The notes under the pieces were generated by a model. It was not told the origin of the DNA and searched no databases. It saw only the letters and a list, made by a program, of their open reading frames with translations. Of a DNA stretch of 64,000 nt, positions 3,416 through 63,534 are shown in pieces (position 1 is the first letter of the stretch; each line of letters opens with the position of its first letter). A program made the translations under genes and the position numbers. Source of the stretch: Bacillota bacterium (GTDB lineage Bacteria; Bacillota; Dethiobacteria; DTU022; PWGO01); the NCBI GenBank assembly GCA_012518215.1, contig JAAYSV010000008.1, positions 166,452 through 230,451 on the forward strand, in the 5' to 3' direction.

Positions 3416-3427
3416 ATTCACCCACCT

Positions 3428-4411: not shown

Positions 4412-4424
4412 GCGCTCCTCCCCC

Positions 4425-6850: not shown

Positions 6851-6909
6851 CTCGAATTTTCATCCTCCCACGCAGATTAGCTTTTGATAGTGCTGAACCA
6901 GCTTGGGGG

Positions 6910-7887: not shown

Positions 7888-7888
7888 C

Positions 7889-8677
7889 TTATAAATGACC
7901 TCCTTTTACGAGAATGGAAGCAAGTTTTTCCGCCTTTTCTTCCGGTTCACCCTCGATAAACTCCGCTGTCGAAACAACTTCCGGAATGTAAAGCTTGTTC
8001 AGAACGATCAACGAAGCAGACTCGTTCACCTGATCGGCAGGCATGGACAGATCGTCAAGATTCATTACCTTGAGTTCTTTTTTCTGCGCCTGTCTGATTC
8101 CCCTGATCGGGGCATAGCGGGGTTCGTTGATACCCGTCTGTATGGTCAGGACGGCCGGAAGGGCCACTTCCACAACCTCCATCAGCCCACCTTCAAGCTC
8201 CCTGCTTGCTTTTACCTTGCCATCAAGGACTTCAACATTTTTGACCATCGCCGCATGTGCCACACCCAGTTCTTCTGCCAGGGCCACCCCCACGGCCATC
8301 TGACCGTCATCGTTGGCCATGCAACCGGTGAGAACCAGGTCAAATTCTTGCCCCTTGATCGCTCCGGCAAGGACCTTGGCTATACAGATGGGGTCAAAGC
8401 TATTGATCCGGGGATCTTCTATGCGAATGGCACGATCCCCGCCCTTGGCAAGGGCCATACGGATCATGACTTCGGATTTCTGTGGCCCGATGGAAACGAC
8501 CGTGACCTCTCCTCCCTTGTCTTCCTTGATCAGCACGGATTCCTCGACCGCATAGTTGTCAGCATCGTTGATATCGAATGAAAATCGGCTGGAATCCACT
8601 GCCTTTCCGGTTTCGTCTAGTTTGATATCGGCTTCCGACGTATCCGGAACATACTTGATACAAACAAAAGTCTTCAC
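7889..8677 (-). CDS. etfB: Electron transfer flavoprotein beta subunit
   Basis: 262 aa starting MKTFVCIKYVPDTS... with a GTG start and SD GGAGGTGGAG. Confidence 0.9.
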   Translation of the reverse strand: MKTFVCIKYVPDTSEADIKLDETGKAVDSSRFSFDINDADNYAVEESVLIKEDKGGEVTVVSIGPQKSEVMIRMALAKGGDRAIRIEDPRINSFDPICIAKVLAGAIKGQEFDLVLTGCMANDDGQMAVGVALAEELGVAHAAMVKNVEVLDGKVKASRELEGGLMEVVEVALPAVLTIQTGINEPRYAPIRGIRQAQKKELKVMNLDDLSMPADQVNESASLIVLNKLYIPEVVSTAEFIEGEPEEKAEKLASILVKGGHL

Positions 8678-8709
8678 AAAACTCCACCTCCAACTTTCTA
8701 GTATTCGAT

Positions 8710-9852
8710 TTACATCACAGTGTCGATAATTTCCATTATTTCCGCTACCCTCATCTCTTCTTCAAGGCCCAATGCCTTGACAGCATCATCCAGAGTGAGT
8801 ACACAGAAAGGACAGGCTACGGCCACCACCTGTGCCCCCAGTTCTTTCGCATCCTTGATCCTTGTTTCCGCCAGGCGTTCCTCTTTCGATTCCGATTCCA
8901 CCCACATCTTCCCTCCGCCACCTTCACAGCAGAGGCTGCGTTCCCGGGAACGTTCAAATTCAACAAGTTCCACACCGGGGATGCTTTTCAGAATCATCCT
9001 CGGTTCATCAAAAATGAGGCTCTGCTTGCCCAGGAAGCATGGATCATGATAAACGATTCTCTCCTTCAACTCGCCCGAAAAACTCAATTGCTCTTTTTCA
9101 ATCAATTCGGCCAGAAGCTGTGTATAATGTATAACCTCGTGTTTCAGGCCTTCCATTTTCTTCAAAGCAGTCAGGCAATGGGGCGATAGGGTTACAATTC
9201 TTCCGGCGGAGAATTCATTGTATTTCTCCACCGTTTCCTCGGCCATCTCCCAGAAGAGTTCTTCCTCCCCCAGGGCTATGATCTCGCTGCCGCAGCAGGA
9301 TTCATCCTCGCCCAGAAAGGCATAGTCCACACCCGCTTTGTTGAGCAGCTTGACCATGTTTCTGGCTGTCGCCTGTACACGAGGATCGTAGGCAATCGTG
9401 CAGCAGACGAAAAAGAGATTTTCCACCTCCTGATCGGGATCGGCCAGTTTCACGTCCAGCCCATCCATCCAATCGTAACGGAGAGCCTTGGCCTTGTTCC
9501 AGGGGTTTCCTTCCAGGTATGTGCTTTCCAGAGCATCCCTGACAGTCGGCTGAACCTTCCCACTCTCTACCAGAAGATTGCGCAGGCCGAACAGAACCTC
9601 CACCGGTTTCAACCCCTTCGGGCATCTTACCGCGCAGGTATGACATCCGGTACAGTCCCATACTTCGACAAGGTGGGCAAGTTCATCCAGAAGGTCCTCG
9701 TTGTAAGCGTCATATACAAATCGACGTGGATTCAGATTTGTTCTGACTGTAACCGGGCAACCCCCGGTACACTTCCCGCACTGGATACAACCAAGTAAAT
9801 CAAATTTTTCTGTAAAAGAAATGTTTTCAACGCTCATCTTCATACCCCGCAT
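8710..9852 (-). CDS. HdrD/GlcF-like Fe-S oxidoreductase: N-terminal 2x[4Fe-4S] plus two CCG cysteine-rich domains (HdrC+HdrB-like fusion)
   Basis: Motifs present: CIQCGKCTGGCP and CTGCHTCAVRCP, then two CCG motifs (DESCCGSE, SLCCEGGGG) and CPFC. It is adjacent to etfBA, as in the ETF-linked Fe-S oxidoreductases of Syntrophomonas-type genomes. No obvious TM helix. The start could be M1, M4 or M6. Confidence 0.8.
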   Translation of the reverse strand: MRGMKMSVENISFTEKFDLLGCIQCGKCTGGCPVTVRTNLNPRRFVYDAYNEDLLDELAHLVEVWDCTGCHTCAVRCPKGLKPVEVLFGLRNLLVESGKVQPTVRDALESTYLEGNPWNKAKALRYDWMDGLDVKLADPDQEVENLFFVCCTIAYDPRVQATARNMVKLLNKAGVDYAFLGEDESCCGSEIIALGEEELFWEMAEETVEKYNEFSAGRIVTLSPHCLTALKKMEGLKHEVIHYTQLLAELIEKEQLSFSGELKERIVYHDPCFLGKQSLIFDEPRMILKSIPGVELVEFERSRERSLCCEGGGGKMWVESESKEERLAETRIKDAKELGAQVVAVACPFCVLTLDDAVKALGLEEEMRVAEIMEIIDTVM

Positions 9853-10078
9853 AGAGATATATTTTGTTTGCCTCTAGTAAACCGGTTTCGATATAGATTT
9901 TCTACGTTTGAAATTCCAGAAGCAAAAGACCGGACAGCCTTGATTCACCTCCTTTTCAACCCATGATTATTCCAATTATGAACGGAATATAACAAACATC
10001 GATTATGCTTGCCCTGACCCGGTTGGAAATGTTTTCCTGCCGGGATTTGACACGATTGCATAATTCATTTTCTACTCT

Positions 10079-10207
10079 TTCGACATTAATTTGAATAAAT
10101 CCTGCTAAGTATATAGAAATTAAAGAAATATAAAACAAATTAGAAGATAATGTATTTGCGCGAAATATTTTTTTCAAAAAAAGAGGATATTTCCATTTTA
10201 TGTCGAA
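10079..10207. promoter_or_regulatory. AT-rich intergenic region with two Spo0A-box-like heptamers (TTCGACA at 10079-10085, TGTCGAA at 10201-10207)
   Basis: Exact matches to the 0A-box consensus TGTCGAA in opposite orientations. They flank the promoter region shared by the spo0E-like gene and the etf-hdr operon. Confidence 0.25.
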
Positions 10208-10241
10208 ATCAACCAACCGACCCAAAAATCGGGAGGATAAA

Positions 10242-10427
10242 ATGACGATGAAACATGAATTCAGTAATGCGCAGAAGACCAAACATCTTCAGGCAAAAAT
10301 TGAAGGGCTACGCACCAAAATGTACAACACCAGTTTTATCCATGGATGCCCTCTCGATAGCAAGACCATCCGGGCCAGCAAGAATCTGGATAAAGCTATC
10401 AACGAGTACATGAAAATAAAACAGTGA
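10242..10427 (+). CDS. Spo0E-family sporulation regulatory protein (aspartyl-phosphate phosphatase-like), 61 aa
   Basis: MTMKHEFSNAQKTKHLQAKIEGLRTKMYNTSFIHGCPLDSKTIRASKNLDKAINEYMKIKQ fits the Spo0E-like helical hairpin pattern (L..IE.LR..M......G......I..S..LD..I..Y). SD GGGAGGA lies 5 nt before ATG 10242. The ORF track started at 10200. Confidence 0.5.
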   Translation: MTMKHEFSNAQKTKHLQAKIEGLRTKMYNTSFIHGCPLDSKTIRASKNLDKAINEYMKIKQ

Positions 10428-10443
10428 TTCAAAGGCCACGGAT

Positions 10444-11487
10444 CTATTTTTCCACAACGAGCAAACTGCCTGAATAATCAAGGACTTCTCCGACTGTATA
10501 ACAGCCAAGGCCTGCTCCGGTCATGGCATCTGTCAACCCCGGCAGCCGTGCAGGTGGTACGGACATAAGAAGCCCTCCGGATGTCTGCGGGTCAGCCATG
10601 AGCATCAACTTGCTGTCATCATCTACCATTATTTCCATTCTGGGCCGGTAAAAATCCAGGTTGCGGTAGGTACCGCCGGGAACAAAACCTTTTTCGAATA
10701 GCTCCTCCGTCCGGGGGTAAAGAGGCAGTGAACCCTGCCTGAGTTTGATGGAAACACGGCTTGATTCGGCCATCTCCGCTGCATGCCCCAGCAGTCCGAA
10801 ACCGGTAACATCCGTACAGGCGGAAACCCCGGACTGCTTCATGATCCGCGCAGCTCCATCATTCAACGCGGACATCCCGTCAAGAGCCTCTGCCACCTCC
10901 TCTTCCCTGACTGCCCCCCCTTTCAGGGCAGTGGTAATGATGCCGGTCCCTATGGGCTTGCTGAGTACCAGAACTTCTCCCGGCCGGGCTCCCGAAATGG
11001 TGACGAGTTCGCGTGGGTCTACCAGGCCCGTGACAGCCAGCCCGTATTTGGGTTCATCATCCTCGATGCTATGCCCTCCAACCACGACCGCTCCGGCTTC
11101 CTGGATTTTCACATGGCCGCCATGAAGAATATCTTTCAAAATATTACTTTTCAATTTTTGGCAAGGGAAAGAAACTATATTCAAAGCAGTAAGGGGTGTT
11201 CCGCCAACCGCGTAGATATCTCCCAGGGCGTTTGCCGCCGCGATCAAACCAAACAGGTAGGGATCGTCCACCACCGGGGTAAAATAATCGACCGATTGTA
11301 CCAGGGCGGTATCCTCTGCAATTTGAAATATTCCCGCGTCGGAGTTTTTTTCCTCACGGTTCAAGAAACGCCGATCCTCCGGCAGGGGCAATTGACGCAG
11401 AACCTGCGCCAGGGTCTCCGGACCTATCTTGGCTGCTCACCCGGCGCTACGTGCCAACGAGGTCAACCTCATTTTTTTCTCCGACAT
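10444..11487 (-). CDS. selD: Selenide,water dikinase (selenophosphate synthetase), selenocysteine-containing: in-frame TGA (Sec) at 11437-11439, codon 17
   Basis: ORF track gives 10444..11391 only. Reading upstream in frame gives MSEKKMRLTSLARSAG-U-AAKIGPETLAQVLRQLPLPEDRRFLN..., which aligns with E. coli SelD [23 protein letters not shown]; the UGA replaces Cys17. SD AAGGGGTG lies before ATG 11485-11487. The rest (SVDYFTPVVDDPYLFGLIAAANALGDIYAVGG...) is canonical SelD. Confidence 0.85.
11380..11436 (-). promoter_or_regulatory. Candidate SECIS region immediately 3' of the selD UGA
   Basis: mRNA: UGA GCAGCCAAGAUAGGUCCGGAGACCCUGGCGCAGGUUCUGC. A GGUC-CGGA-GACC hairpin starts 14 nt after UGA with outer GCAG...CUGC complementarity. 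The structure was not folded computationally. Confidence 0.3.
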
Positions 11488-11501
11488 CTGCCCACCCCTT
11501 T

Positions 11502-13415
11502 TCAAAGTTTCCAGGGTACACGATAATCCCCCACCCTTTTCGTGTACTTCTTCTGGTCAAAATGTTCCAGCAATGCTTGCATGTATTTCCGCGAACTCTG
11601 CAGGCAGTCACGAAATTGAGCCATCGTAAGCCGATCATGTTGGCGAAAATGATCCCGCAACATCTCCAGTGCCTCTTCATACAGATCCTGGAGCAGATAC
11701 ATATCTTCACTTATTTTGATTATCCAACCGCGATCGCTCATGTATTCCAGCAGAGATTCGAGGTCAGCAATCTTCCGGTCAGTGGAAGCCGCTATTTCTC
11801 TTGCCGGAGGAGGCTGGAACCGTGCTTCGCTCAGAATCGACTTGATCTTGCTGATGAAAATCTCCTCGCCGGGTGTCAGTTCAGGTACAAAACCGGCTCT
11901 GCAAACCTTCTCTCCCTGACAGCTCACCACCCCTTTGGCCTCCAGATTGTCCAGGAAAGCATCGTATTCCCTGATGGAGAGTTCTGCCGGAATTACGCCC
12001 CTCAACTGCGCCCGCGGAACCCCGGCCAGAAGAGGATGCTTGCGATGATAGTCATCCAGAAAAGCAGTTACCTCCTCTTCCCATTTTTCCAGCGTTTCCG
12101 CCGTTATATAACTGCCCCCCAGATCCATGATCTTTCCCTCATCCTTCAGTTCCCCGATAAGTGATTCCAGCTTCTCCTTTCCCAACCGGGCCATCGTTTC
12201 AAGCCGTGAAAAATCGGCCACTTTCAACTGGCTTATCTTCTGGACCACGTATGATCTGTCCGTTCCGGAAGTCAGAATCTCTCTCTCCAGTTCCCGGAGG
12301 GTTTTTATGATTGTGCGGCGGGCGCGGCGCGGCCTCCTTTCCGAGAAAGGGTCGAGGACCATCCCCCCACCAATCGTCACCACCGGCGAATAGGAGCGGA
12401 TGATGAAACGGTCCTTCCTGTCGGCGACCAGCGGCGACTCCAACCTGAGCTGGACAAGCCCCCTTTCCCCGGGCCGCAGGATCTCTTTATCCAGAATAGC
12501 CATACGCGCCACCACCCGGGACGTGCCAAGATAAAGATGCAGGGGGTCCAGGTTCTTCACGTCCCTGGTAACTCTATTCAATATCGTCACGGAGGCATCG
12601 AGCATCGATGTCCGCCTGAAATAACCCGGGGAACAGATCACGCTTCCCCGTTCCAGTTCACTCTTTTCCACCCCCGAAAGATTTATGGCCACCCTGTGTC
12701 CGGCAAAAGCTTCCTTGACACCGTGATTGAAAACCTCGATGTTGCGCACGCGCGCTTTCTCCCCCGCGGGCAACACTTCCACGATATCACCGATGCCCAC
12801 GCGCCCCTGGATGAGCGTGCCCGTCACTATCGTGCCAAACCCGGATATGATGAAGGAACGGTCAACGGGAAGCCGCATCGGTGCATTCAGGTCGCGGGGT
12901 GCGACCATCCTTGTAAGCCGATCAAGCATCGCCCGCAATTCCTCTATCCCGGATCCGGTTACCGCCGAAACCCGGCAGAAAGGGGCTTCCTGCAGGAAAG
13001 TACCCCGAAGTTCTCCTCGCACCTCTTCCTCCACCATGTCCAACCATTCTTCATCGACAAGGTCGATTTTGGTCAGCACGACCAGTCCTTTTTCCAGTCC
13101 CAGCAATTGCAGAATGTTGAGGTGTTCGCGGGTCTGGGCCATAACTCCCTCGGAGGCATCGATCACCAGCAGTACAAGATCTATGCCCGCGGTACCCGCC
13201 AGCATATTGTTGATAAATCTTTCGTGGCCCGGAACATCTATTATTCCCGCTACCCGGCCTCCGGACAAAGAAAAAGAAGCAAAACCCAGATCGATGGAGA
13301 TGCCCCTTTCCTTTTCTTCCTTGAGCCGATCCGTGTCCACCCCGGTAATCGCACTGATCAGCGCCGTCTTGCCATGGTCAACATGGCCGGCCGTACCGAT
13401 TATCACCGCATCCAA
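11502..13415 (-). CDS. selB: Selenocysteine-specific translation elongation factor SelB
   Basis: MDAVIIGTAGHVDHGKTALI... with GTPase G1-G4 motifs and a long winged-helix C-terminus. TTG start with SD GGAGTG 7 nt upstream. It lies 14 nt upstream of selD. Confidence 0.9.
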   Translation of the reverse strand: MDAVIIGTAGHVDHGKTALISAITGVDTDRLKEEKERGISIDLGFASFSLSGGRVAGIIDVPGHERFINNMLAGTAGIDLVLLVIDASEGVMAQTREHLNILQLLGLEKGLVVLTKIDLVDEEWLDMVEEEVRGELRGTFLQEAPFCRVSAVTGSGIEELRAMLDRLTRMVAPRDLNAPMRLPVDRSFIISGFGTIVTGTLIQGRVGIGDIVEVLPAGEKARVRNIEVFNHGVKEAFAGHRVAINLSGVEKSELERGSVICSPGYFRRTSMLDASVTILNRVTRDVKNLDPLHLYLGTSRVVARMAILDKEILRPGERGLVQLRLESPLVADRKDRFIIRSYSPVVTIGGGMVLDPFSERRPRRARRTIIKTLRELEREILTSGTDRSYVVQKISQLKVADFSRLETMARLGKEKLESLIGELKDEGKIMDLGGSYITAETLEKWEEEVTAFLDDYHRKHPLLAGVPRAQLRGVIPAELSIREYDAFLDNLEAKGVVSCQGEKVCRAGFVPELTPGEEIFISKIKSILSEARFQPPPAREIAASTDRKIADLESLLEYMSDRGWIIKISEDMYLLQDLYEEALEMLRDHFRQHDRLTMAQFRDCLQSSRKYMQALLEHFDQKKYTKRVGDYRVPWKL

Positions 13416-13452
13416 TTCTTATCACTCCGCACCATAGAGATTGTTTTTTGAT

Positions 13453-14871
13453 CTATTCCCCGGGATTTACCGCCTTCATCATCACGGTAACAATTTCTTC
13501 CTCCTGTCCGGGCAAAACGGTCCGCAAATCCAGAAGCAAATGTTCCTGGTGGACCCTCGCTATCAGGGGGGGGTCTCCCCACCGCAATCTTTTCATCAAC
13601 TCCTCCGCCGAAATGTCCCCGGATCGGTAGGAGATCAGATACGTGGGCAATTCTGCCAGGGGCATGGCTCCACCCCCCACACAGGAGGTCCCTTTCATTA
13701 TCTGCCAATCCCCTGCCTTGACCTGCTGTTTCAAACGGCGCAGCAAACGGTCAGCCCTCGCCTTCAGGTCACGGGTATCAGCGGTCAACATCCCCAGAAC
13801 GGGAATTTCACATCGGGCCTTCTCGTGGTCATGATAGAGGCGTAAAGTCGCCTCCATGGCCGCGATGGTTAGTTTATCAACGCGCAATGCCCTTGACAGC
13901 TGGTTATCACGCAACCGCCGGATCAGGTCCCTGTCCCCTACAATTATCCCTGCCTGCGGTCCGCCAAGGATCTTGTCCCCGCTGAATGAGACTGCCCCGA
14001 CACCCTCTTCGAGGCATTCTTGCACGGTGGGTTCCGGAGGCAACCCGTATTCGGTGAGATCATAAAAAGCCCCACTGCCCAGATCTTCCACCACCGGCAA
14101 GCCAACCTGCCGACCCAGGGAAACCAGTTCTTTCCGGGAAACCTCCTCCGTAAAACCAATGATACGATAATTGCTTGTATGTACCTTCAGGAGCAATGCA
14201 GTCCGATCAGAAATGGCTCTTTCATAATCATGCCGGTAACATTTGTTCGTAGTTCCCACTTCCACCAGCGTTGCCCCGCTGGCTTTCATGACATCGGGAA
14301 CACGGAACCCTCCCCCTATCTCGACCAGTTGCCCGCGGGAAACGATAACTTCCCTATCCCTGGCCAAAGTATTGAGAAGAAGCAATACCGCCGCGGCATT
14401 GTTGTTGACAATCAGGGAAGCTTCCGCCCCGGTCAAGGTGCATACCAGCCCCTCCACGTGGGCCAGCCGTGAATCCCTCCGGCCACTTTCCAGCGAAAGT
14501 TCAAGATTGGAATACTGCCCCGCCGTGGATGTAACTGCGTGGATAGCCTGTTCGGCCAGCGGCGCCCGCCCCAGATTGGTATGCAATATAACCCCTGTTG
14601 CATTGATCACATGGCGCAGCCCGGAAAAAAACCGCAGCCTTGCCCTTTCCGCGGCTTCGGCAGCAATCACGGCGGGGTCGATGGCCAGGTTTTCAAGTTC
14701 CTCGCCGGAGGAAGAAGCGATGATTTTCTCTCTGAAATGATCTATGCTCTCGCGTGAAACTTCGAGCAGGAGACCGTGGGGAATCCGATTCGCGATTTTT
14801 TGCAGGGGCTCTTCCTGCAAGATACGGTCCACCGCCGGCAAGGCCCTGAGAAAAGAGTTTTTAACGTCCAT
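13453..14871 (-). CDS. selA: L-seryl-tRNA(Sec) selenium transferase
   Basis: ORF 13453..14901 trimmed to ATG 14871 (SD AGAGGTG, spacer 5). The sequence MDVKNSFLRALPAVDRILQEEPL... is a typical SelA N-terminus. Confidence 0.9.
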   Translation of the reverse strand: MDVKNSFLRALPAVDRILQEEPLQKIANRIPHGLLLEVSRESIDHFREKIIASSSGEELENLAIDPAVIAAEAAERARLRFFSGLRHVINATGVILHTNLGRAPLAEQAIHAVTSTAGQYSNLELSLESGRRDSRLAHVEGLVCTLTGAEASLIVNNNAAAVLLLLNTLARDREVIVSRGQLVEIGGGFRVPDVMKASGATLVEVGTTNKCYRHDYERAISDRTALLLKVHTSNYRIIGFTEEVSRKELVSLGRQVGLPVVEDLGSGAFYDLTEYGLPPEPTVQECLEEGVGAVSFSGDKILGGPQAGIIVGDRDLIRRLRDNQLSRALRVDKLTIAAMEATLRLYHDHEKARCEIPVLGMLTADTRDLKARADRLLRRLKQQVKAGDWQIMKGTSCVGGGAMPLAELPTYLISYRSGDISAEELMKRLRWGDPPLIARVHQEHLLLDLRTVLPGQEEEIVTVMMKAVNPGE

Positions 14872-14905
14872 CCCGACACCTCTGACATATGATTTGATCA
14901 TTTAC

Positions 14906-14922
14906 TAAAAACTATCATACCA
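14906..14922 (-). promoter_or_regulatory. Candidate extended -10 promoter (TGgTATGAT) for selA-selB-selD
   Basis: Minus strand: ...TTGTGGTATGATAG... about 40 nt upstream of the selA ATG. No good -35 element. Confidence 0.3.
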
Positions 14923-15158
14923 CAAAACAATGGAATGATTAATCGAAGTGGCCAGTTACGGAAGATCCGCCCGGGCTGCAACCTGCATCCCCGTGGCCTC
15001 CGGGGAAAAGATGGGCCCTGTCGGAAGCCGTTCGCCGCCTCCGGAGTAAAGATGGAAAGGCCGACAATCCATCAAAAACTGGCCTTGCAAAAGCTCCCAT
15101 AACCATGCGGAAAGGGCGGTGAGGCCTCTCCCTGATGGAAGCAAAACGGCCAACAAGA

Positions 15159-15182
15159 CAGCCGGACCAAACCGGCTGTCTG
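15159..15182 (-). terminator. Intrinsic terminator downstream of thiolase gene
   Basis: Minus strand: GACAGCCGG-UUUGGU-CCGGCUGUC, a perfect 9-bp stem, followed by UUGUUGGCCGUUUUGCUU. Confidence 0.55.
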
Positions 15183-15266
15183 CATCCCGCCCTGTTTTTC
15201 TGGTAGAATCACTGGCCGCGATTCGATCAACGCAACACCCGTTTGCCGGAACTGATCACGTACAGA

Positions 15267-16448
15267 TTACATCCCTTTCACCAGCGTGGCAACGCCCTGC
15301 CCGCCTCCGATACAGAGAGAAGCGACACCCAGGTTGCTTTTTCTTCTCCTCATCTCGAAAATCAAAGTGATGAAGATCCTGGCGCCGCTGGCCCCGATAG
15401 GATGGCCCAGAGCAATCGCCCCGCCGTTGACGTTGACAATCTCCGGGTTCACCTGCAGCTCTTTCAGTACAGCCAGGGATTGGGAAGCAAAAGCTTCATT
15501 CAATTCAAAAAGATCGATATCTTCAACGGAGAGGCCGGTCTTCTTGAACAGGCGCCGGCAAGCAGCTATGGGGCCGGTTCCCATCACCCGGGGTTCAACC
15601 CCCGCCGAGGCAAAATTGATCACCTCCACCATGGGCTTCAGGCCAAGCTTCCCCACCACCCTGCCGGAAGCAAGGACCACTGCAGCAGCACTGTCGTTGA
15701 TGCCCGAAGCGTTGCCTGCCGTAACCGTACCATCTTTTTTGAATGCCGGGCGAAGGGCCGCCAGTTTTTCCAGGGTTGTCCCCCGCCGGGGATGTTCATC
15801 GGTGCTGAAAGGCAGCGGTTCACCCTTTCTCTGCGGGACAGGCACGGGTATTATCTCATCATCAAACCTTCCTTCATCAATGGCGGCGATGGCCCTGTGC
15901 TGGCTCTGCAAGGCAAAAAGGTCCTGATCTTCCCTGCTGATATTGTAATCATCCGCAATATTCTCGGCCGTGATCCCCATGTGTATGTCCTCGAACGCAC
16001 ACCAGAGGCCATCCAGAATCATCGCGTCCTGCATCACCGTATGCCCCATCCGCCCCCCCCATCTGGCCATCGGCGCGAGATAGGGAGCCGCACTCATATT
16101 CTCCATCCCCCCGGCCACAACGATATCTGCATCCCCGAGCATGATGCTCTGGGCACCCAGATTGATCGCCTTCAGCCCGGAACCGCAGACCTTGTTTACC
16201 GTCAATACCGGTACTTCCACGGGTATCCCGGCATTGACAGCAGCCTGTCGGCCGGAACTCTGCCCGAGCCCCGCTTGCAGAACATTGCCCATGATCACTT
16301 CATCCACATCTTTCTTGTCCAATCCCGCCCTTTTCAGCGCTTCCTCGATGACAATAGAGCCGAGCTTCACCGCCGTTACATCTCTCAAGGACCCACCGAA
16401 GCTACCTACCGCTGTTCGCACCGCACCTACCACATATACTTTCTCCAC
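15267..16448 (-). CDS. Acetyl-CoA C-acetyltransferase (thiolase II)
   Basis: ORF 15267..16460. I prefer GTG 16446-16448 (SD GAGGTGA, spacer 8), giving MEKVYVVGAVRTAVGSFGGSLRDV..., which matches the clostridial ThlA N-terminus. Catalytic Cys in NKVCGSGLKA; C-terminal GHPIGASGARI...CIGGGQG. Confidence 0.9.
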   Translation of the reverse strand: MEKVYVVGAVRTAVGSFGGSLRDVTAVKLGSIVIEEALKRAGLDKKDVDEVIMGNVLQAGLGQSSGRQAAVNAGIPVEVPVLTVNKVCGSGLKAINLGAQSIMLGDADIVVAGGMENMSAAPYLAPMARWGGRMGHTVMQDAMILDGLWCAFEDIHMGITAENIADDYNISREDQDLFALQSQHRAIAAIDEGRFDDEIIPVPVPQRKGEPLPFSTDEHPRRGTTLEKLAALRPAFKKDGTVTAGNASGINDSAAAVVLASGRVVGKLGLKPMVEVINFASAGVEPRVMGTGPIAACRRLFKKTGLSVEDIDLFELNEAFASQSLAVLKELQVNPEIVNVNGGAIALGHPIGASGARIFITLIFEMRRRKSNLGVASLCIGGGQGVATLVKGM

Positions 16449-16494
16449 TTGCAGTTTCACCTCTGATTCTATATGTTAAAAAATTGCCCCTGGT

Positions 16495-16532
16495 TCATAA
16501 AAAGGCGGGTGGCGTAACCAACGCCGCCCGCC
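16495..16532 (-). terminator. Intrinsic terminator between acyl-CoA dehydrogenase and thiolase genes
   Basis: GGCGGGCGGCG-UUGGUUA-CGCCACCCGCC, an 11-bp GC-rich stem, followed on the minus strand by CUUUUUAUGA. Confidence 0.65.
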
Positions 16533-16563
16533 TCTTTCAACTCCCGCTTACCCTTTCAACAGT

Positions 16564-18348
16564 CTACTTCTCCAAAAAGTATTTCTTCGCCTTGTAAGCC
16601 TCATCTGCCAATTCGCGCTTGATAACATAGGTGTTGAGCGGAATATTACGGCTCAGCAGGAGGATGTTATCCGTATTTCTTGCTGCTTTTTCCGGTTCAA
16701 AAGTACCGGCAATGACCTCGTTGGTCCATGCCTGGCATTTCGGAACCATTTCGCTCACCAGGCACTGGGTCATCAACATCGGCAGGCGGGCAGCTTCCTC
16801 ACCACTTTCAGCGGCAATCTTCCTCGCCCTCAGCAAGGAGCTTTCAGCGGCGAAAACTTCCATGGCAATATTGGCCAGGGCCACCAGAATCTCCTGTTCC
16901 TGCTCGATGGCCTGTTCAAACTGACGTGCTGCATTGCCGCAAGCCAGCAGGAATAGTTTCTTCATGTTTTCAATGACGAAGGCTTCCTTCTCCGGTGACT
17001 CCGTGGGTACCTCCATCTCTTTCAGCTTGTCAAGTTCCCCTTTCAATCCGAAGACAGCGTCCATGAAAGGAAGGTCGCCGCTCATCGCCTTGGGAAGAAG
17101 GGTTCCGGGGATAAGCATGCGGTTGACCTCGTTGGTGCCTTCAAAAATCCGGTTGATACGGCTATCCCGGTACAACCTTTCCACGATATATTCGGCCGAA
17201 TAACCGTAACCACCGTAGATCTGCACTGCCTCATCGACGATCTGATCCAGCCCTTCCGAGCAGTAAACCTTGTTGATCGAACATTCAATGGCGTATTCAC
17301 GAATCGAATTGACAACCTGCTGGTTGGCATCCTCGGCATCCATGTCCACATCTTCCATCTTGGTGTCGATCAGTCCCACGGTGCGATAGACCATACTTTC
17401 CATGGCATAGGTCTTGATCAACATGTCGGCAATCTTGTTCTTGATCAGGTTGAACTGCGCGATGGGCTGGTTGAACTGATGCCTCTCCAGTGCATATTCG
17501 ATCGAAGCTTCAATTGCTTTCTTGGCCCCGCCGACTGCACCGGCAGCCAGCTTGAAGCGGCCGATATTCAAGATATTCAGCGCCACCTGATGTCCCTTGC
17601 CGATCACATGAAGAACGTTTTCCACGGGAACCTTGCAGTCTTCCATGATCACGCTGCAGGTCGAAGATCCATGGATCCCCATCTTCTTCTCCTCGGGACT
17701 GATGGAAAGCCCTTCCGAATCACGATCAACGATAAAAGCGGTGAACTTCTCTCCGTCAATCTTGGCGAATACAATGATCACGTCCGCCCAGGCAGCATTG
17801 GTAATAAACATCTTGGTCCCGTTAAGTATGTAATGCTTGCCGTCTTCAGTCAGAACAGCCGTGGACCTTGCGTTCATGGCATCGGAACCGGCTTCCGGTT
17901 CAGTCAGTGCATATGCCGCAATTTTGTTTCCCACTGCCAGATCGGGAAGATAGCGTTCCTTCTGCTCCTTGGTACCGAAATAGACGATCGGCAGGGTACC
18001 GATACCCGTATGAGCACCGAATGCCGTGGAGAAGGAACCTGAATAGGTCAGGGCTTCGGCAATGAGCGCCGAAGTAGTCTTGTCCCCACCGTCTCCGCCA
18101 TATTCTTCGGGAATATCGCTGCCAAGAAGCCCCAGTTCCCCCGCTTCTTTCAACAGGCCTACCGTCACCCCTTCGGCTTTGGCTTCGATCTCATCAGTGA
18201 GGGGAAATACTTTGTTCTCACCAAAATCATCACACGTCTTCTTGATCATAAGATGCATGTCATCCAGTTCTTCGGGGGTAAAAACATCATCTGGACCAAG
18301 CTGGCTGAGCAAGAAAGACCCACCTTTTACATAATCCTGTTCACTCAT
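16564..18348 (-). CDS. Acyl-CoA dehydrogenase, long (~594 aa) form with C-terminal extension
   Basis: ORF 16564..18387 trimmed to ATG 18348 (SD AAGGAGGAG, spacer 9; MSEQDYVKGG...). ACAD N/M/C domains are present (YALTEPEAGSDA, catalytic region IYGGYGYSAEYIVERLYRDSRINRIFEGTNEVNR) plus an extra ~200-aa C-terminal domain. Confidence 0.9.
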   Translation of the reverse strand: MSEQDYVKGGSFLLSQLGPDDVFTPEELDDMHLMIKKTCDDFGENKVFPLTDEIEAKAEGVTVGLLKEAGELGLLGSDIPEEYGGDGGDKTTSALIAEALTYSGSFSTAFGAHTGIGTLPIVYFGTKEQKERYLPDLAVGNKIAAYALTEPEAGSDAMNARSTAVLTEDGKHYILNGTKMFITNAAWADVIIVFAKIDGEKFTAFIVDRDSEGLSISPEEKKMGIHGSSTCSVIMEDCKVPVENVLHVIGKGHQVALNILNIGRFKLAAGAVGGAKKAIEASIEYALERHQFNQPIAQFNLIKNKIADMLIKTYAMESMVYRTVGLIDTKMEDVDMDAEDANQQVVNSIREYAIECSINKVYCSEGLDQIVDEAVQIYGGYGYSAEYIVERLYRDSRINRIFEGTNEVNRMLIPGTLLPKAMSGDLPFMDAVFGLKGELDKLKEMEVPTESPEKEAFVIENMKKLFLLACGNAARQFEQAIEQEQEILVALANIAMEVFAAESSLLRARKIAAESGEEAARLPMLMTQCLVSEMVPKCQAWTNEVIAGTFEPEKAARNTDNILLLSRNIPLNTYVIKRELADEAYKAKKYFLEK

Positions 18349-18414
18349 ACAACAATTCTCCTCCTTGATTTTTTTTAAATAAAACATTTTTGGTTGAAAC
18401 CAATAACTATACTT

Positions 18415-21375: not shown

Positions 21376-21981
21376 CTATCCGTTTTCTTTTTCTTTCAGG
21401 GCCTGGATCTTCTTGGACAATATTTCAATCTTCTTCTCCAGTTGTTCCACATCCTGCCTGGTAACGATCTTGCTTCTGACCGCCTCGACCCCCTCCATCA
21501 ATTTGATCAGATAGATATTTTTCTGTTCTTCAAATTTATCCATGAACGAATCGACCAGACTGTCGGCATCCTCGATGTGCAGGCCCCCTTTTTCGGCCAG
21601 AGACCTGGTCAGCTCCTCGGCCCTGTCTTTCCATTCCAGGACAAAATCGATGGCCTGCGATATAAATTCACCGGACAACAATGCCTCCACGATGCCACTT
21701 TCCTTGATACAAAAACCCTTTTTCCCCTCCGGAACCCCCGGTGAGGCGTCCGCGGCTGGAGAAGACTGCGGATCGGTGTCGGTAACCGCCTGTTCCACTA
21801 TCCGGTCGGCTTTTCGCATCCGTTTCCTTTCAATTTCCTCATCTGTCAAAGATACCAACCAATGCCCACGATTGTCTTTGCGCGCCTCTATTGTTTTACG
21901 TTCTATCCTCCTCTGGATCGCGCTCGGTGTAACTCCAAGAAGCAACGCCGCCTCTTTCTTCGAATATTCCCTTCTGCTCAT
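21376..21981 (-). CDS. Excisionase-family (HTH_17-type) DNA-binding protein with long C-terminal coiled coil
   Basis: N-terminus KKEAALLLGVTPSAIQRRIERKTIEARKDNRGHWLV matches MerR/excisionase-type HTH (PF12728-like). The C-terminal half is acidic and coiled-coil. It lies directly downstream of tRNA-Sec. Confidence 0.6.
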   Translation of the reverse strand: MSRREYSKKEAALLLGVTPSAIQRRIERKTIEARKDNRGHWLVSLTDEEIERKRMRKADRIVEQAVTDTDPQSSPAADASPGVPEGKKGFCIKESGIVEALLSGEFISQAIDFVLEWKDRAEELTRSLAEKGGLHIEDADSLVDSFMDKFEEQKNIYLIKLMEGVEAVRSKIVTRQDVEQLEKKIEILSKKIQALKEKENG

Positions 21982-22114
21982 GCTTTACCCCCCTGTCAAA
22001 TCAACTTCAAGTCTGCCCCCGGAAACAAACTGATGGAATGGCACCACTCACACTTCATTTTACCACAAATTATGTTTTACGTTAACCCCAACTTCTCTTC
22101 TTGCAACACAGCAA

Positions 22115-22210
22115 TGGCGGGAGTAGATGGGAATCGAACCCACCGTGGACGGATCGCGCCCACCACTGGATTTGAAGTCCAGGAGCGTCACCAGACCGCC
22201 AACTACCCCC
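22115..22210 (-). tRNA. selC: tRNA-Sec (anticodon UCA), 96 nt
   Basis: Minus strand: GGGGGTAGTTGGCGGTCTGGTGACGCTCCTGGACTTCAAATCCAGTGGTGGGCGCGATCCGTCCACGGTGGGTTCGATTCCCATCTACTCCCGCCA. It has an 8-bp acceptor stem, an anticodon loop CTTCAAA identical to E. coli selC, a long variable arm, and encoded CCA. Confidence 0.9.
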
Positions 22211-22397
22211 GTGCAGGAAACTTGTCCACACATTATCTTACTAGAATCATCCGAATTAATCAACCTTGAACAGCTCCCCCGGAAACTGCTTCAAAACGGG
22301 GCTGTGCCAAAGAAATTGGCATTCAAGCAGGACATCTTCTCCCTTTGTTTGAATATTTTAAACATATATCTATCAAACATCGGGAGGGAAAAATAAT

Positions 22398-23843
22398 ATG
22401 CCTGAAAACAAATATATCAGCAGCCTGAAAAAATTGAAGCGCAAAGTCTATATCCGGGGCACCCCGGTCGATGCACCGCAGGAACATCCGCTGGTGCAGC
22501 TCAGCACCGCAGCAGTAGCCCGGTCCTATGCTCTGCAGGGCCAGCCGGAACACGAACAGCTGATCTATGCGAACTCTCATCTGGATGGCCGCCGCATCAA
22601 TCGTTTCACCCATATTCATCGCTCGGCAGAAGACCTGATCAACAAGGTAAAGTTGCAGCGTCTTCTTGGCCAGCAGACGGGAACATGCTTTCAGCGTTGC
22701 GTGGGCATGGACGCTTTGAATGCACTGGAAATCACCACTTTTGAACTGGAACGGGATCTGGGCACACCCTATCATCGTAATTTCAACCATTTCCTGCAGC
22801 AGGTTCAGGAGGAGAATGCTGTCTGTGACGGGGCAATGACCGACCCCAAGGGGGATCGCAGCAAGCGCCCCCATGAACAGGCCGACCCCGATCTATACCT
22901 GCGAGTAGTCAGCCGGAACAGGGAAGGTATCGTGGTCAACGGTGCGAAATGCCATCAGACCGGCGCGCTCAATTCCCACTACATCATCGCCATGCCAACC
23001 ACGGCAATGCGTGAAGAGGACCGTGATTATGCCGTGGCCTTTGCCGTGGAAGCGGATAACCCGCAATTGATCTACATTCTGGGGCGCCAACCTTCGGATC
23101 TCCGCAAAATGGAACCTGATCGTGCCGACACCGGCAACATGTATTTCGGTGGACAGGAATGCCTCATCATCTTCGATCATGTTTTTATCCCCTGGGAAAG
23201 AGTATTCCTCTGCGGGGAATACGATTATTCCGGCCGGCTGGTCGAACGTTTTGCCGGTTATCATCGCCAGAGCTACGGCGGCTGCAAGACCGGAGTGGGC
23301 GACCTGCTTATCGGTGCAGCGGCCTCATTGGCAGAATACCATGGCCTCGACAGGGCTTCCCACATCAAGGATAAACTTGTGGAGATGATTCATCTGAATG
23401 AAACGATATTCTGCTGCGGTATTGCCTGCTCTTCCCGGGGCAACCCCACCGCTTCGGGAACGTATCTTGTTGACCTTCTGCTGGCCAATGTCTGCAAATT
23501 GAATGTGACCCGTTTTCCCTACGAGATAGCAAGGCTTGCCGAGGACATCGCCGGCGGTCTGGTGGCCACCCTGCCATCACTGAAAGATCTGGAACATCCG
23601 GAGATCGGGCCGTTGTTGAAAAAATATTTTCAAGGCGTTGCCGGCATGGAAACCACCTGCCGCCTCAGGATGCTGCGTTTTGTGGAAAACCTTACCCTGG
23701 GAGCAGCAGCCGCCGCCTACCTGACCGAATCCTTGCATGGCGCCGGTTCACCTCAGGCCCAGCGGGTGGTCATCGCCAGGCAGGCTGATCTGGAAGGGAA
23801 GAAAAGAATGGCCCGGAAGTTGGCTGGAATCAAGGATGATTGA
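22398..23843 (+). CDS. abfD: 4-hydroxybutyryl-CoA dehydratase / vinylacetyl-CoA delta-isomerase
   Basis: 481 aa, collinear with Clostridium aminobutyricum AbfD. The 4Fe-4S ligand motifs CFQRCVG and H(x6)C (YHRQSYGGCKTG) are conserved, as are FAD-fold regions (DGAMTDPKGDR, HLNETIFCCGIAC). SD GGGAGGG. Confidence 0.9.
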   Translation: MPENKYISSLKKLKRKVYIRGTPVDAPQEHPLVQLSTAAVARSYALQGQPEHEQLIYANSHLDGRRINRFTHIHRSAEDLINKVKLQRLLGQQTGTCFQRCVGMDALNALEITTFELERDLGTPYHRNFNHFLQQVQEENAVCDGAMTDPKGDRSKRPHEQADPDLYLRVVSRNREGIVVNGAKCHQTGALNSHYIIAMPTTAMREEDRDYAVAFAVEADNPQLIYILGRQPSDLRKMEPDRADTGNMYFGGQECLIIFDHVFIPWERVFLCGEYDYSGRLVERFAGYHRQSYGGCKTGVGDLLIGAAASLAEYHGLDRASHIKDKLVEMIHLNETIFCCGIACSSRGNPTASGTYLVDLLLANVCKLNVTRFPYEIARLAEDIAGGLVATLPSLKDLEHPEIGPLLKKYFQGVAGMETTCRLRMLRFVENLTLGAAAAAYLTESLHGAGSPQAQRVVIARQADLEGKKRMARKLAGIKDD

Positions 23844-38780: not shown

Positions 38781-38855
38781 TGGTGGGCGATGTAGGATTT
38801 GAACCTACGACCCCCTGCTTGTAAGGCAGGTGCTCCCCCGCTGAGCTAATCGCCC
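38781..38855 (-). tRNA. tRNA-Val (anticodon TAC)
   Basis: GGGCGATTAGCTCAGCGGGGGAGCACCTGCCTTACAAGCAGGGGGTCGTAGGTTCAAATCCTACATCGCCCACCA. Confidence 0.9.
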
Positions 38856-38859
38856 GGAT

Positions 38860-38935
38860 TGGTGACCCCTAGGGGATTTGAACCCCTGCTGCCAGCTTGA
38901 AAGGCTGGTGTCCTAACCGATTAGACCAAGGGGCC
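38860..38935 (-). tRNA. tRNA-Glu (anticodon TTC)
   Basis: GGCCCCTTGGTCTAATCGGTTAGGACACCAGCCTTTCAAGCTGGCAGCAGGGGTTCAAATCCCCTAGGGGTCACCA. Confidence 0.9.
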
Positions 38936-38964
38936 GGCCATATCAACATTATTGTACAAATAGG

Positions 38965-39040
38965 TGGTGGGCCCACCAGGGCTCGAACCTGGGACCGACC
39001 GGTTATGAGCCGGCTGCTCTTCCGGCTGAGCTATGGGCCC
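38965..39040 (-). tRNA. tRNA with CAT anticodon (elongator Met or lysidine-modified Ile2; not initiator)
   Basis: GGGCCCATAGCTCAGCCGGAAGAGCAGCCGGCTCATAACCGGTCGGTCCCAGGTTCGAGCCCTGGTGGGCCCACCA. The anticodon loop CTCATAAC resembles Bacillus tRNA-Ile(LAU). It lacks the initiator 3xGC anticodon-stem signature. Confidence 0.8.
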
Positions 39041-39044
39041 ACAA

Positions 39045-62442: not shown

Positions 62443-63534
62443 TTGCAGGAGGCTGTCCATATCGATAATCAGATTGATGTCCACGAAGCACTGAAAAGGA
62501 AAGACCTGATCTTTGTCGATGTTCGTTCTCCCCGGGAGCATCGGAAGGAGAAGATACCCGGTTCCCTGAATATTCCACTGTTCTCCGACGAAGAACAGAA
62601 AGAGCTGGGGACAACCTACAAACATGCCGGCCATCTCGAAGCAAGGCAAAAAGGCCTGGAATATGCTGCGCCGAAACTTGCCAGGCTGGCAAGCATGCTG
62701 GGTGAAGTCGCTTCCCGGAAAACCCCGGTTCTCTACTGCAGGCGCGGAGGGCTTCGCAGCCGGAGCCTCTCCCAGATTCTTTCCCTGGTCGGAATCCCCG
62801 CCCTGCGGCTCAAGGGGGGATACAAAGCTTACCGTCAATTCATTTTTCAGTCGCTGGGCAACTACCATCTCCATCCCCGCCCGGTGTTGTTACATGGCCT
62901 GACGGGAACAGGCAAGACACCGATCATCCAAACATTGATCACTTCAGGTTATGCAGCCCTTGATCTGGAAGGTATGGCCTGCCACCGGGGGTCAGTTTTT
63001 GGCAAGATCGGTTTTACGACCGAGCGTTCTCAGAAAGATTTTGAAGCACTGCTCTGGAACCAACTGGAAAAACATGGCCGTTCCCGCTATCTGGTGATCG
63101 AGAAAGAAGGGCGGAGAATCGGTCGGCTGGTCCTGCCCGATTTCCTCGTACAATCCATGGAAGAAGGCATGCATATTCTTCTTGAAGCCCCCCTGGAAAC
63201 CAGGGCTGAAAGAATTGTTTCCGAGTATATCGATGGCCCCCTTTCGGAAAGCGAAAAAGAGGAATTCACTCATGCCATCACCTCCCTCGTTCCCCGCCTG
63301 GGAAGGAAAACGGCGGAAAAAGTGTTATCCCTGTTTGAAACGGGCGATTACCGGCAAGTAGCCCTGATCCTCTGCCGGGATTATTACGATCGTTTCTACA
63401 CCGATGCCCGCCCGGACAGATATCCCTACGCAGCCGTGTTCGATTCCTCGTCGATTCCCGTTGCCACGGAACAGGTCATCGCTTTCCTGGAAAATAACAA
63501 ACTGATCGAAAGAAGAAAGGAGGTGAAGACATGA
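62443..63534 (+). CDS. selU: tRNA 2-selenouridine synthase (rhodanese domain + P-loop)
   Basis: ORF 62218..63534. The N-terminal 75 aa of that ORF are antisense to the hit gene and low complexity. The rhodanese domain begins DLIFVDVRSPREHRKEKIPGSLNIP with active-site CRRGG. Walker A GLTGTGKT. The start is provisionally TTG 62443, which has no canonical SD, and is therefore uncertain. Confidence 0.75.
   Translation: MQEAVHIDNQIDVHEALKRKDLIFVDVRSPREHRKEKIPGSLNIPLFSDEEQKELGTTYKHAGHLEARQKGLEYAAPKLARLASMLGEVASRKTPVLYCRRGGLRSRSLSQILSLVGIPALRLKGGYKAYRQFIFQSLGNYHLHPRPVLLHGLTGTGKTPIIQTLITSGYAALDLEGMACHRGSVFGKIGFTTERSQKDFEALLWNQLEKHGRSRYLVIEKEGRRIGRLVLPDFLVQSMEEGMHILLEAPLETRAERIVSEYIDGPLSESEKEEFTHAITSLVPRLGRKTAEKVLSLFETGDYRQVALILCRDYYDRFYTDARPDRYPYAAVFDSSSIPVATEQVIAFLENNKLIERRKEVKT

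What the first reader, a model, noticed from the sequence alone, without database searches (positions are those of the whole stretch)
22115..22210. Selenium-utilisation trait spread over the window: selA-selB-selD operon, tRNA-Sec 7 kb away, and selU
Seen in sequence: a 96-nt tRNA with an 8-bp acceptor stem, a UCA anticodon loop identical to E. coli selC and a long extra arm lies at 22115-22210 (minus). The selABD operon is at 10444-14871 and a rhodanese/P-loop selU is at 62443-63534.

Established knowledge: together these specify both Sec-decoding and 2-selenouridine tRNA modification.

Inference:
- selC is unlinked from selAB here and sits next to an excisionase-family HTH gene.
- Other selenoproteins of this genome outside the window would likewise be mis-called; the Hdr/Flx, MvhD-fusion and dehydratase genes inside the window have no in-frame TGA.
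Basis: partly seen in the sequence, partly recalled or inferred. Interest (0 to 1): 0.5.

Follow-up and report, generated by a model that had tools for sequence, protein, structure and literature searches.

The report
Standard bacterial selenium-use gene set
The window carries a complete, ordinary bacterial toolkit for using selenium: the selenocysteine tRNA, the selA-selB-selD genes and the selenouridine synthase.

Summary
ARAGORN and Rfam both call a 96-nt tRNA-Sec (UCA) at 22115-22210 (-), with the bacterial 8/5 fold, a long extra arm, G73 and an encoded CCA. selA (13453-14871/14901), selB (11502-13415) and selD form a tightly spaced minus-strand cluster 7.2 kb away. selU/mnmH lies at about 62443-63534 (+). 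All four proteins pass NCBIfam equivalog cut-offs.

It carries an in-frame TGA at 11437-11439, which is Sec17, the position of E. coli Cys17. That TGA is conserved in six relatives (SelD identity about 78-54%). It is followed by a 7-bp hairpin with a GUN loop at 11394-11410, which pairs in all 7 sequences and has two compensatory pairs. This is a SECIS. Public gene calls truncate this SelD to 306-315 aa.

No other gene in the window needs TGA read-through.

The "excisionase" neighbour scores below family cut-offs and has no integrase or att repeat near it. A relative, however, carries a ~870-bp insert at selC, flanked by a 22-nt repeat of the tRNA 3' end.

Verdict: a known system in an uncultured biogas-reactor Firmicute (Dethiobacteria-like). 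Low interest.

The parts
22115..22210 (-). selC: tRNA-Sec, anticodon UCA, bacterial 8/5 cloverleaf, long variable arm, G73, CCA encoded
   Evidence: ARAGORN; Rfam RF01852 73.2 bits; pairing check; 77% identity to annotated E. coli tRNA-Sec with an identical anticodon stem-loop
22235..22263 (-). Candidate sigma-A promoter for selC: TTGATT, 17 nt, TAAGAT. Identified by eye, 8 of 12 matches, tentative.
   Evidence: Read from the sequence. The same two hexamers lie upstream of selC in relative L013. Not reported by the consensus scan, which needs 9 of 12. Inference only.
13453..14871 (-). selA, L-seryl-tRNA(Sec) selenium transferase, 472 aa; the longest ORF runs to 14901
   Evidence: TIGR00474 589 bits, Pfam SelA 516 bits; PLP-lysine motif SGDK at residue 297-300; RBS GAGGTG before the ATG at 14871
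11502..13415 (-). selB, Sec-specific elongation factor, 637 aa, TTG start
   Evidence: TIGR00475 403 bits; Pfam GTP_EFTU, Beta-barrel_SelB, SelB-wing_2, SelB-wing_3; GHVDHGKT and DVPG motifs
10444..11487 (-). selD, selenide water dikinase, 347 aa including Sec17. The mechanical ORF (10444-11391) lacks the N-terminal 32 residues.
   Evidence: TIGR00476 340 bits for the ORF, with the match starting at model position 35. The segment upstream of the TGA matches model positions 1-59. Translation gives MSEKKMRLTSLARSAG-U-AAKIGPETL.
11437..11439 (-). In-frame UGA = Sec17 of SelD, followed by Lys20
   Evidence: The same TGA in the motif SAG-U-AAK is present in 6 relatives.
11394..11410 (-). SECIS hairpin of selD: 7-bp stem GGCGCAG/CUGCGUC with a GUU loop. 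The loop starts 33 nt after the UGA.
   Evidence: 100% paired in 7 sequences. Pair 33-43 is GC, AU or UA. Pair 36-40 is GC, AU or GU. 0 of 500 shuffles reach the covariation score, and slid controls reach at most 61% paired. RNAalifold predicts the same helix.
62443..63534 (+). selU / mnmH, tRNA 2-selenouridine(34) synthase, about 363 aa; start codon uncertain
   Evidence: NF008750 346 bits, TIGR03167 311 bits, Pfam Rhodanese; rhodanese Cys in CRRGGLRS and Walker A GLTGTGKT; the family match begins at residue 85 of the 438-aa maximal ORF

Best explanation
The window holds the complete canonical bacterial selenium-utilisation system of an uncultured anaerobic-digester Firmicute (Dethiobacteria-like).

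How it works, from established knowledge of the pathway rather than from tests here:
1. SelD makes selenophosphate.
2. SelA converts Ser-tRNA(Sec), carried on the selC product, into Sec-tRNA(Sec).
3. SelB-GTP delivers it to in-frame UGA codons that are followed by a SECIS hairpin.
4. SelU/MnmH uses the same selenophosphate to convert 2-thiouridine to 2-selenouridine at the tRNA wobble position.

selA, selB and selD are tightly spaced on one strand (37-nt and 14-nt gaps), so they probably form one operon; this is inferred. selC has its own locus 7.2 kb away, and selU lies about 51 kb from selD.

SelD is itself a selenoprotein. It has Sec17, encoded by UGA at 11437-11439, which is decoded through a 7-bp hairpin with a GUN loop at 11394-11410. 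The system therefore feeds back on its own selenium donor.

Shown here: gene identities, the tRNA fold, the conserved UGA, and the hairpin with covariation. Inferred: operon structure, promoters, actual Sec insertion, and SelB binding.
For: - tRNA-Sec is called by two independent methods and has an explicit 8/5 fold.
- SelA, SelB, SelD and SelU all score above NCBIfam equivalog cut-offs and carry the expected catalytic motifs.
- Sequence homology to SelD continues across the TGA.
- The TGA is conserved at the same codon in 6 relatives spanning about 78-54% SelD identity.
- The hairpin downstream pairs in 7 of 7 sequences and has two compensatory pairs. In one of these, the wobble base of an Ala codon (G/A/U) covaries with the first base of an Arg/Cys/Ser codon (C/U/A).
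- Most of the closest database homologues are 306-330 aa, the signature of Sec forms that were truncated by gene callers.
- The literature lists SelD and FdhA as the most widespread bacterial selenoproteins, and the Sec and SeU traits commonly co-occur (PMC1794560).
Against: - No expression or selenium-incorporation data exist.
- The covariation rests on only 7 related sequences, and 3 of the 7 pairs never vary.
- Single-sequence folding of the region is no better than shuffled sequence (z = -0.7).
- No Rfam SECIS family matches, even at E <= 10.
- The loop lies 33 nt after the UGA. That is further than in E. coli fdhF (from memory) and near the upper end of the 16-37 nt range used by bSECISearch (from memory).
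- selD is not next to selU, whereas PMC1794560 says these two 'almost always form an operon'.
- No selenoprotein other than SelD is visible in the window.
Confidence: 0.93

Rival explanations
1. The TGA in selD is a true stop. Either the gene is a 315-aa N-terminally short SelD or a pseudogene, and the upstream 16 codons are not translated as part of it.
For: Mechanical ORF listing and public gene callers give 306-315 aa. Single-sequence folding after the TGA is unremarkable.
Against: - The short form would lack the N-terminal glycine-rich loop with the catalytic Sec/Cys17 and Lys20.
- The 16 codons before the TGA and the codons after it match SelD model positions 1-59.
- The TGA and its flanks (SAG-U-AAK) are conserved in 6 relatives down to about 54% identity.
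- A covarying hairpin follows the TGA.
- The full Sec machinery lies immediately upstream.
Confidence: 0.03
2. The selC locus is the edge of an integrated mobile element, and the HTH_17 'excisionase-family' gene next to it is the element's excisionase.
For: - tRNA-Sec is a classic integration site in Enterobacteria (from memory).
- There is a weak HTH_17 / excisionase-domain hit.
- In relative L013, a ~870-bp insert flanked by a 22-nt repeat of the tRNA 3' end sits at exactly this site.
Against: - In the window there is no second copy of the tRNA 3' end and no integrase.
- No relevant repeats lie within 15 kb.
- The HTH hits are below family cut-offs.
- The HTH gene lies outside the repeat-bounded insert in L013. 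It is conserved in the same place, with the same promoter-like site, in relatives at 67-85% identity.
- It is followed by housekeeping genes (GlgP, ACAD, thiolase) in conserved order.
Confidence: 0.04
3. The tRNA is a selC-like or allo-tRNA that decodes UGA as something other than Sec (for example Cys or Ser), not a genuine Sec tRNA.
For: Such tRNAs exist in some bacteria (from memory), and aminoacylation cannot be tested here.
Against: The tRNA has a canonical 8/5 fold, G73 and a 6-bp D stem. Rfam tRNA-Sec scores 26 bits above its gathering score. SelA and SelB are intact in the same window, and a conserved Sec codon with a SECIS is present in selD.
Confidence: 0.02

Closest known systems
E. 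coli selC / selAB / selD / selU (ybbB, mnmH) system
   Same: The same five components are present. The tRNA has the same 8/5 fold and an identical anticodon stem-loop. All proteins reach equivalog cut-offs. selC is unlinked from selAB, as in E. coli (from memory).
   Different: Here selD follows selAB directly, and SelD carries Sec17 instead of Cys17. The tRNA D stem has a bulged G, and the sixth anticodon-stem position is C.U rather than G.U.
Sec-containing SelD of anaerobes (Clostridia, Deltaproteobacteria), as catalogued by Zhang et al. 2006 (PMC1794560)
   Same: UGA sits at the catalytic Cys17 position. SelD is listed among the most widespread bacterial selenoproteins, and it co-occurs with the selenouridine trait.
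   Different: This is a new lineage (an uncultured Dethiobacteria-like Firmicute from digesters). selD is linked to selAB rather than to ybbB/selU.
Bacterial SECIS, E. coli fdhF / Moorella fdhA type
   Same: A hairpin within the coding sequence just 3' of the UGA, with an invariant G-U at the start of the apical loop (GCAG-GUU-CUGC here; fdhF has GCA-GGUC-UGC, from memory).
   Different: The loop lies about 33 nt after the UGA, against about 20 nt in fdhF (from memory). No bulged U is evident. No Rfam SECIS model matches.
selC-associated genomic islands of Enterobacteria (LEE, SHI-2 and others; from memory)
   Same: In relative L013 an insert sits at the 3' end of tRNA-Sec, bounded by a direct repeat of the tRNA end.
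   Different: The window's site is empty. The insert in the relative is only about 870 bp, with two small genes and no integrase.

Membership tests
Bacterial tRNA-Sec (selC) | UCA anticodon in a 7-nt loop | tested here: met
   ARAGORN gives tca at position 36; the loop is CUUCAAA.
Bacterial tRNA-Sec (selC) | 8-bp acceptor stem plus 5-bp T stem (8/5, 13 bp in all) | tested here: met
   G1-C92 to G8-C85 and G68-U84 to G72-C80 all form standard pairs.
Bacterial tRNA-Sec (selC) | 6-bp D stem with a 4-nt loop, a long variable arm, and a G73 discriminator | tested here: met
   3+3 bp D stem with a bulged G14 and loop UGGU; 7-bp variable arm with a 5-nt loop; G93 comes before the CCA.
Bacterial tRNA-Sec (selC) | Scores above the curated covariance-model threshold | tested here: met
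   RF01852 73.2 bits against 47. The tRNAscan-SE Sec model was not available.
Bacterial tRNA-Sec (selC) | Serylated by SerRS, converted by SelA, bound by SelB and not by EF-Tu | not testable with these tools
   Biochemical property.
SelA (TIGR00474) | Equivalog score and PLP-binding lysine | tested here: met
   589 bits against 268; SGDK motif at residue 297-300.
SelB (TIGR00475) | EF-Tu-like GTPase with a C-terminal winged-helix extension that binds the SECIS | tested here: met
   403 bits against 242; Pfam SelB-wing_2, SelB-wing_3 and Beta-barrel_SelB.
SelD (TIGR00476) | Equivalog score, and an N-terminal loop with Sec/Cys17 and Lys20 | tested here: met
   340 bits against 125. U17 and K20 lie in SAG-U-AAK once the gene is read from the ATG at 11487.
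Bacterial SECIS | Conserved hairpin 3' of the UGA within the ORF, G(U) in the apical loop, loop within about 16-37 nt of the UGA (criteria from memory of bSECISearch) | tested here: met
   The helix at columns 30-46 pairs in 7 of 7 sequences with 2 compensatory pairs. Loop positions G37 and U38 are invariant.
Bacterial SECIS | Binds SelB and directs Sec insertion | not testable with these tools
   Needs a reporter or binding assay. No Rfam SECIS model hit.
SelU / MnmH (NF008750, TIGR03167) | Equivalog score, rhodanese active-site Cys, and a P-loop | tested here: met
   346 bits against 241 and 311 against 220; CRRGGLRS and GLTGTGKT motifs.
Excisionase / HTH_17 (PF12728, TIGR01764), for the gene at 21376-21981 | Score at or above the family cut-off | tested here: not met
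   26.1 bits against 27, and 20.1 against 28.8. The C-terminal 150 aa are coiled-coil-like with no family hit.
tRNA-integrated genomic island at selC | Integrase gene and a direct repeat of the tRNA 3' end bounding foreign DNA | tested here: not met
   In the window there is only a single copy of the tRNA 3' end, even allowing 3 mismatches, and no integrase domain among the neighbours. The repeat is present in relative L013.

The most novel reading that the evidence does not exclude
The Sec-decoding machinery may be kept in this lineage largely for SelD itself: selA-selB-selD(Sec) would be a self-sustaining module whose main output is selenophosphate for tRNA selenouridine. In addition, the in-ORF SECIS would dictate protein sequence, since SelD residue 31 switches between Arg, Cys and Ser in step with a synonymous Ala-codon change across the stem. 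The conserved position of selABD between beta-oxidation genes and the Etf/FeS-oxidoreductase/Hdr-Flx genes might also reflect a functional tie to syntrophic electron transfer. None of this is excluded by the evidence, but the window alone cannot show it, and the first idea is already discussed in PMC1794560.
Probability: 0.12. Interest if true: 0.3.

Novelty: new member of a known kind. Interest (0 to 1): 0.12.

Why it matters
The main value is for annotation. In this organism and its relatives, SelD is systematically truncated by gene callers, and a spurious 89-aa ORF is called over tRNA-Sec. Recognising the trait flags that other TGA-interrupted genes elsewhere in the genome need re-calling. 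The selD SECIS, with its codon-level covariation, is a clean small example of RNA structure constraining a coding sequence. Nothing here challenges current understanding of selenium utilisation.

Tried and rejected
- Searched for other selenoprotein genes in the window. I listed every reading frame with TGA read as a sense codon, then tested each confident gene for in-frame extension through one TGA upstream or downstream, using a codon-usage score. Only selD qualifies. The DUF881-to-cytidine-deaminase adjacency in one frame is two separate genes. The 416+155 aa plus-strand pair lies antisense to a phosphofructokinase gene.
- Rfam at a permissive threshold over the selD 5' region gave only chance hits and no SECIS family.
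- Single-sequence folding of the SECIS region was not better than shuffles. The comparative data were needed to pick the right hairpin. The alternative hairpin at columns 15-28 is broken in 2 of 7 sequences at three of its pairs.
- Mobile-element idea for selC: no repeat, no integrase, sub-threshold excisionase hit.
- The consensus promoter/terminator scan found no terminator, and found only a promoter-like site for the HTH gene, none for selC.
- The genome-contig scan with SelA returned only two loci (a short Dethiobacteria MAG contig and a Geobacter MAG), so synteny had to be built from exact-protein look-ups instead.
- The look-up of P0025 (Desulfuromonas SelD) found nothing on record.

Full report
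**Observation.** ARAGORN reports a tRNA-SeC with anticodon tca at exactly 22115-22210 on the minus strand. Rfam's tRNA-Sec model RF01852 matches 22119-22210 end to end at 73.2 bits (gathering score 47, E = 4.3e-13). I wrote out the cloverleaf and checked each pair:
- acceptor stem of 8 bp (G1-C92 to G8-C85, one G-U);
- T stem of 5 bp, giving the bacterial 8/5 arrangement;
- D stem of 3+3 bp with a bulged G14 and a 4-nt loop;
- anticodon stem of 5 bp plus a C.U mismatch, with loop CUUCAAA;
- variable arm of 7 bp with a 5-nt loop;
- G73, and an encoded CCA.

The tRNA aligns with the annotated tRNA-Sec of E. coli at 77% identity over positions 16-81. This is not a chance match.

**The protein genes.** The table gives the family scores.

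| Gene | Window coordinates | Model | Bits | Cut-off |
|---|---|---|---|---|
| selA | 13453-14901 (-) | TIGR00474 | 589 | 268 |
| selB | 11502-13415 (-) | TIGR00475 | 403 | 242 |
| selD (ORF) | 10444-11391 (-) | TIGR00476 | 340 | 125 |
| selU/mnmH | 62218-63534 (+) | NF008750 | 346 | 241 |
| selU/mnmH | 62218-63534 (+) | TIGR03167 | 311 | 220 |

SelB also has the SelB-specific beta-barrel and winged-helix Pfam domains. The expected motifs are present: the SelA PLP-lysine motif SGDK, SelB GHVDHGKT and DVPG, and the SelU rhodanese CRRGGLRS and P-loop GLTGTGKT.

Start codons:
- selA most likely starts at 14871, which has an RBS (GAGGTG) and gives the 472 aa used in most public calls.
- The selU family match begins at residue 85 of the maximal ORF.
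- The gaps selA-selB (37 nt) and selB-selD (14 nt) suggest one operon. This is an inference.

The SelD ORF matches its model only from position 35 onward. Reading the minus strand from the ATG at 11487 gives MSEKKMRLTSLARSAG-TGA-AAKIGPETLAQVL. The 62 residues around the TGA match SelD model positions 1-59. The TGA (11437-11439) is codon 17, the position of the catalytic Cys17 of E. coli SelD (from memory), and Lys20 follows.

The closest database homologues are mostly 306-330 aa rather than about 345 aa, which is what truncated calls of Sec forms look like. I fetched the DNA of six of them, at SelD identity of about 78, 60, 59, 57, 55 and 54%. All six have the in-frame TGA inside the same SAG-U-AAK motif, preceded by an open, homologous N-terminus.

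**SECIS.** In an alignment of the 60 nt from the UGA onward in the seven sequences, columns 30-36 pair with columns 40-46 in every sequence. This corresponds to window 11394-11410. The count is 49 of 49 cells paired, against at most 61% when the partners are slid by 1-3 columns. None of 500 shuffles reaches the observed covariation score.
- Pair 33-43 occurs as G-C, A-U and U-A. Pair 36-40 occurs as G-C, A-U and G-U.
- The 33-43 covariation links the synonymous third base of an Ala codon (GCG/GCA/GCU) to the first base of a codon that changes amino acid (CGU/CGC Arg, UGC Cys, AGC Ser). That is hard to explain except by selection on the RNA helix.
- The loop is GUN, with G37 and U38 invariant. 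This recalls the G-U of the fdhF SECIS loop (from memory).
- RNAalifold independently predicts the same helix.

Caveats: there are only seven related sequences, three pairs never vary, single-sequence folding is unremarkable, and no Rfam SECIS family matches.

**Other selenoproteins in the window.** There are none. I scanned all frames with TGA read as sense. I then examined every confident gene for in-frame continuation through a single TGA, using a codon-usage score. The following are uninterrupted ORFs with full domain coverage: HdrA (4853-6850), MvhD/FlxD (4425-4856), the Flx subunits, the GlpC-like CCG Fe-S oxidoreductase (8710-9852), the NfnB-like::MvhD fusion (42620-44710) and the 4-hydroxybutyryl-CoA dehydratase-type gene (22398-23843). 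Those in the fetched loci (all but the NfnB-like::MvhD fusion) are called at the same or nearly the same lengths in relatives. Homologues of HdrA, FrhD/MvhD and GlpC are selenoproteins in some syntrophs (PMC1794560). Here they are the Cys forms.

**Organism and context.** Exact-protein look-ups place the window in contigs from biogas and anaerobic-digester metagenomes. The HTH protein next to selC is 100% identical to a protein from a 'Firmicutes bacterium' MAG. The nearest species-representative genome found is a Dethiobacteria MAG, with SelA at 87% identity. Sporulation genes (YqfD, Spo0E-like) fit a Firmicute.

Two blocks of gene order are conserved:
- acyl-CoA dehydrogenase, thiolase, selA, selB, selD(Sec), Spo0E-like, CCG Fe-S oxidoreductase, EtfB, EtfA, HdrA, FlxD-C-B-A and RseC, in relatives down to about 57-60% SelD identity;
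- selA-selB-selD(Sec) alone, in more distant relatives.

No tRNA-Sec lies within 8-10 kb of selD in those more distant loci. Having selC unlinked from selAB is therefore the norm in this group, as it is in E. coli.

**The neighbour of selC.** The 201-aa protein at 21376-21981 scores just below the cut-offs for HTH_17 (26.1 against 27) and for the excisionase domain (20.1 against 28.8). Its C-terminal 150 residues look coiled-coil. Only four protein clusters in 5.8 billion sequences resemble it.

The window has no integrase near selC, no second copy of the tRNA 3' end even allowing three mismatches, and no meaningful repeats within 15 kb.

In a relative (L013, GCA_002049705.1), selC is followed by a ~870-bp insert carrying an 83-aa ORF and a 62-aa XRE-type HTH gene. 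The insert ends in a 22-nt direct repeat of the tRNA 3' end. After it, the sequence rejoins the window's sequence, with the same GGGGTTAACGTAAAA promoter-like site followed by the HTH_17 gene. So tRNA-Sec does serve as an insertion site in this lineage, the window shows the empty site, and the HTH_17 gene lies on the chromosomal side.

**Mechanism.** The system works as the textbook bacterial one does (established knowledge, not tested here):
1. SelD makes selenophosphate.
2. SelA converts Ser-tRNA(Sec) to Sec-tRNA(Sec).
3. SelB delivers it to a UGA followed by a SECIS.
4. SelU uses selenophosphate for wobble 2-selenouridine.

Because SelD needs Sec17, the module is autocatalytic, an arrangement already discussed in the literature (PMC1794560). 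One small departure from the usual pattern is that selD is linked to selAB rather than to selU, which that paper says is the common partner.

**Verdict.**
- Sec17 and the SECIS in selD;
- corrected gene bounds;
- evidence that public calls truncate SelD and place an ORF over the tRNA;
- the conclusion that the 'excisionase' neighbour is not evidence of a mobile element here.

This is a new instance of a well-known system. Interest is low.

Noticed in passing
L013:4897-5863 (relative, GCA_002049705.1); corresponds to window 22115 downstream junction: A ~870-bp insert sits at the 3' end of tRNA-Sec, bounded by a 22-nt direct repeat of the tRNA end (CGATTCCCATCTACTCCCGCCA). It carries an 83-aa ORF and a 62-aa XRE/HTH_3 gene and has no integrase. 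The window has the empty site.
   Followed up: partly
window 22127-22396 (+) and 10444-11391 (-): On contigs of the same organism, public metagenome gene calls place an 89-aa protein over the tRNA-Sec gene and truncate SelD to 306-315 aa at the Sec codon.
   Followed up: yes
L013:4925 (position 29 of tRNA-Sec): The relative's tRNA-Sec differs from the window's by a single base, C29A. This turns the C29-G45 anticodon-stem pair into A.G. It could be a real variant or an assembly error.
   Followed up: no
window 836-18387 and loci L009-L012, L016: selABD lies in a conserved block between beta-oxidation genes (acyl-CoA dehydrogenase, thiolase) and a CCG Fe-S oxidoreductase/EtfBA/HdrA-FlxDCBA/RseC cluster. 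This gene set is typical of syntrophic fatty-acid oxidisers. All the redox subunits are Cys forms.
   Followed up: partly
window 10200-10427 (+): A small Spo0E-like gene (Pfam 39 bits) is convergent with selD and conserved in relatives. The 108-aa minus-strand ORF at 9956-10282 is probably spurious.
   Followed up: yes
window 453-645 (-): Lysine riboswitch (Rfam RF00168, 102 bits). The gene it controls runs off the window start.
   Followed up: no
window 38781-39119 (-): Cluster of four tRNA genes (Asn, Met, Glu, Val) downstream of sigA-dnaG.
   Followed up: no
L017:10226-14336: In a more distant relative, a xanthine-dehydrogenase-family molybdoenzyme gene and an Aminotran_5::CCG fusion gene lie just downstream of selD(Sec). 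This may be a link to the selenium-cofactor trait.
   Followed up: no
window 22057-22085 (-): A promoter-like site (TTAACG, 17 nt, TG-n-TAAAAT) lies between selC and the HTH gene and is conserved in L013. The HTH gene probably has its own promoter rather than being co-transcribed with selC.
   Followed up: partly
window 42620-44710 (-): A 696-aa fusion of a GltD/NfnB-like NAD(P)H flavin oxidoreductase, a ferredoxin domain and a C-terminal MvhD (FlpD) domain. It is intact, with no TGA.
   Followed up: no
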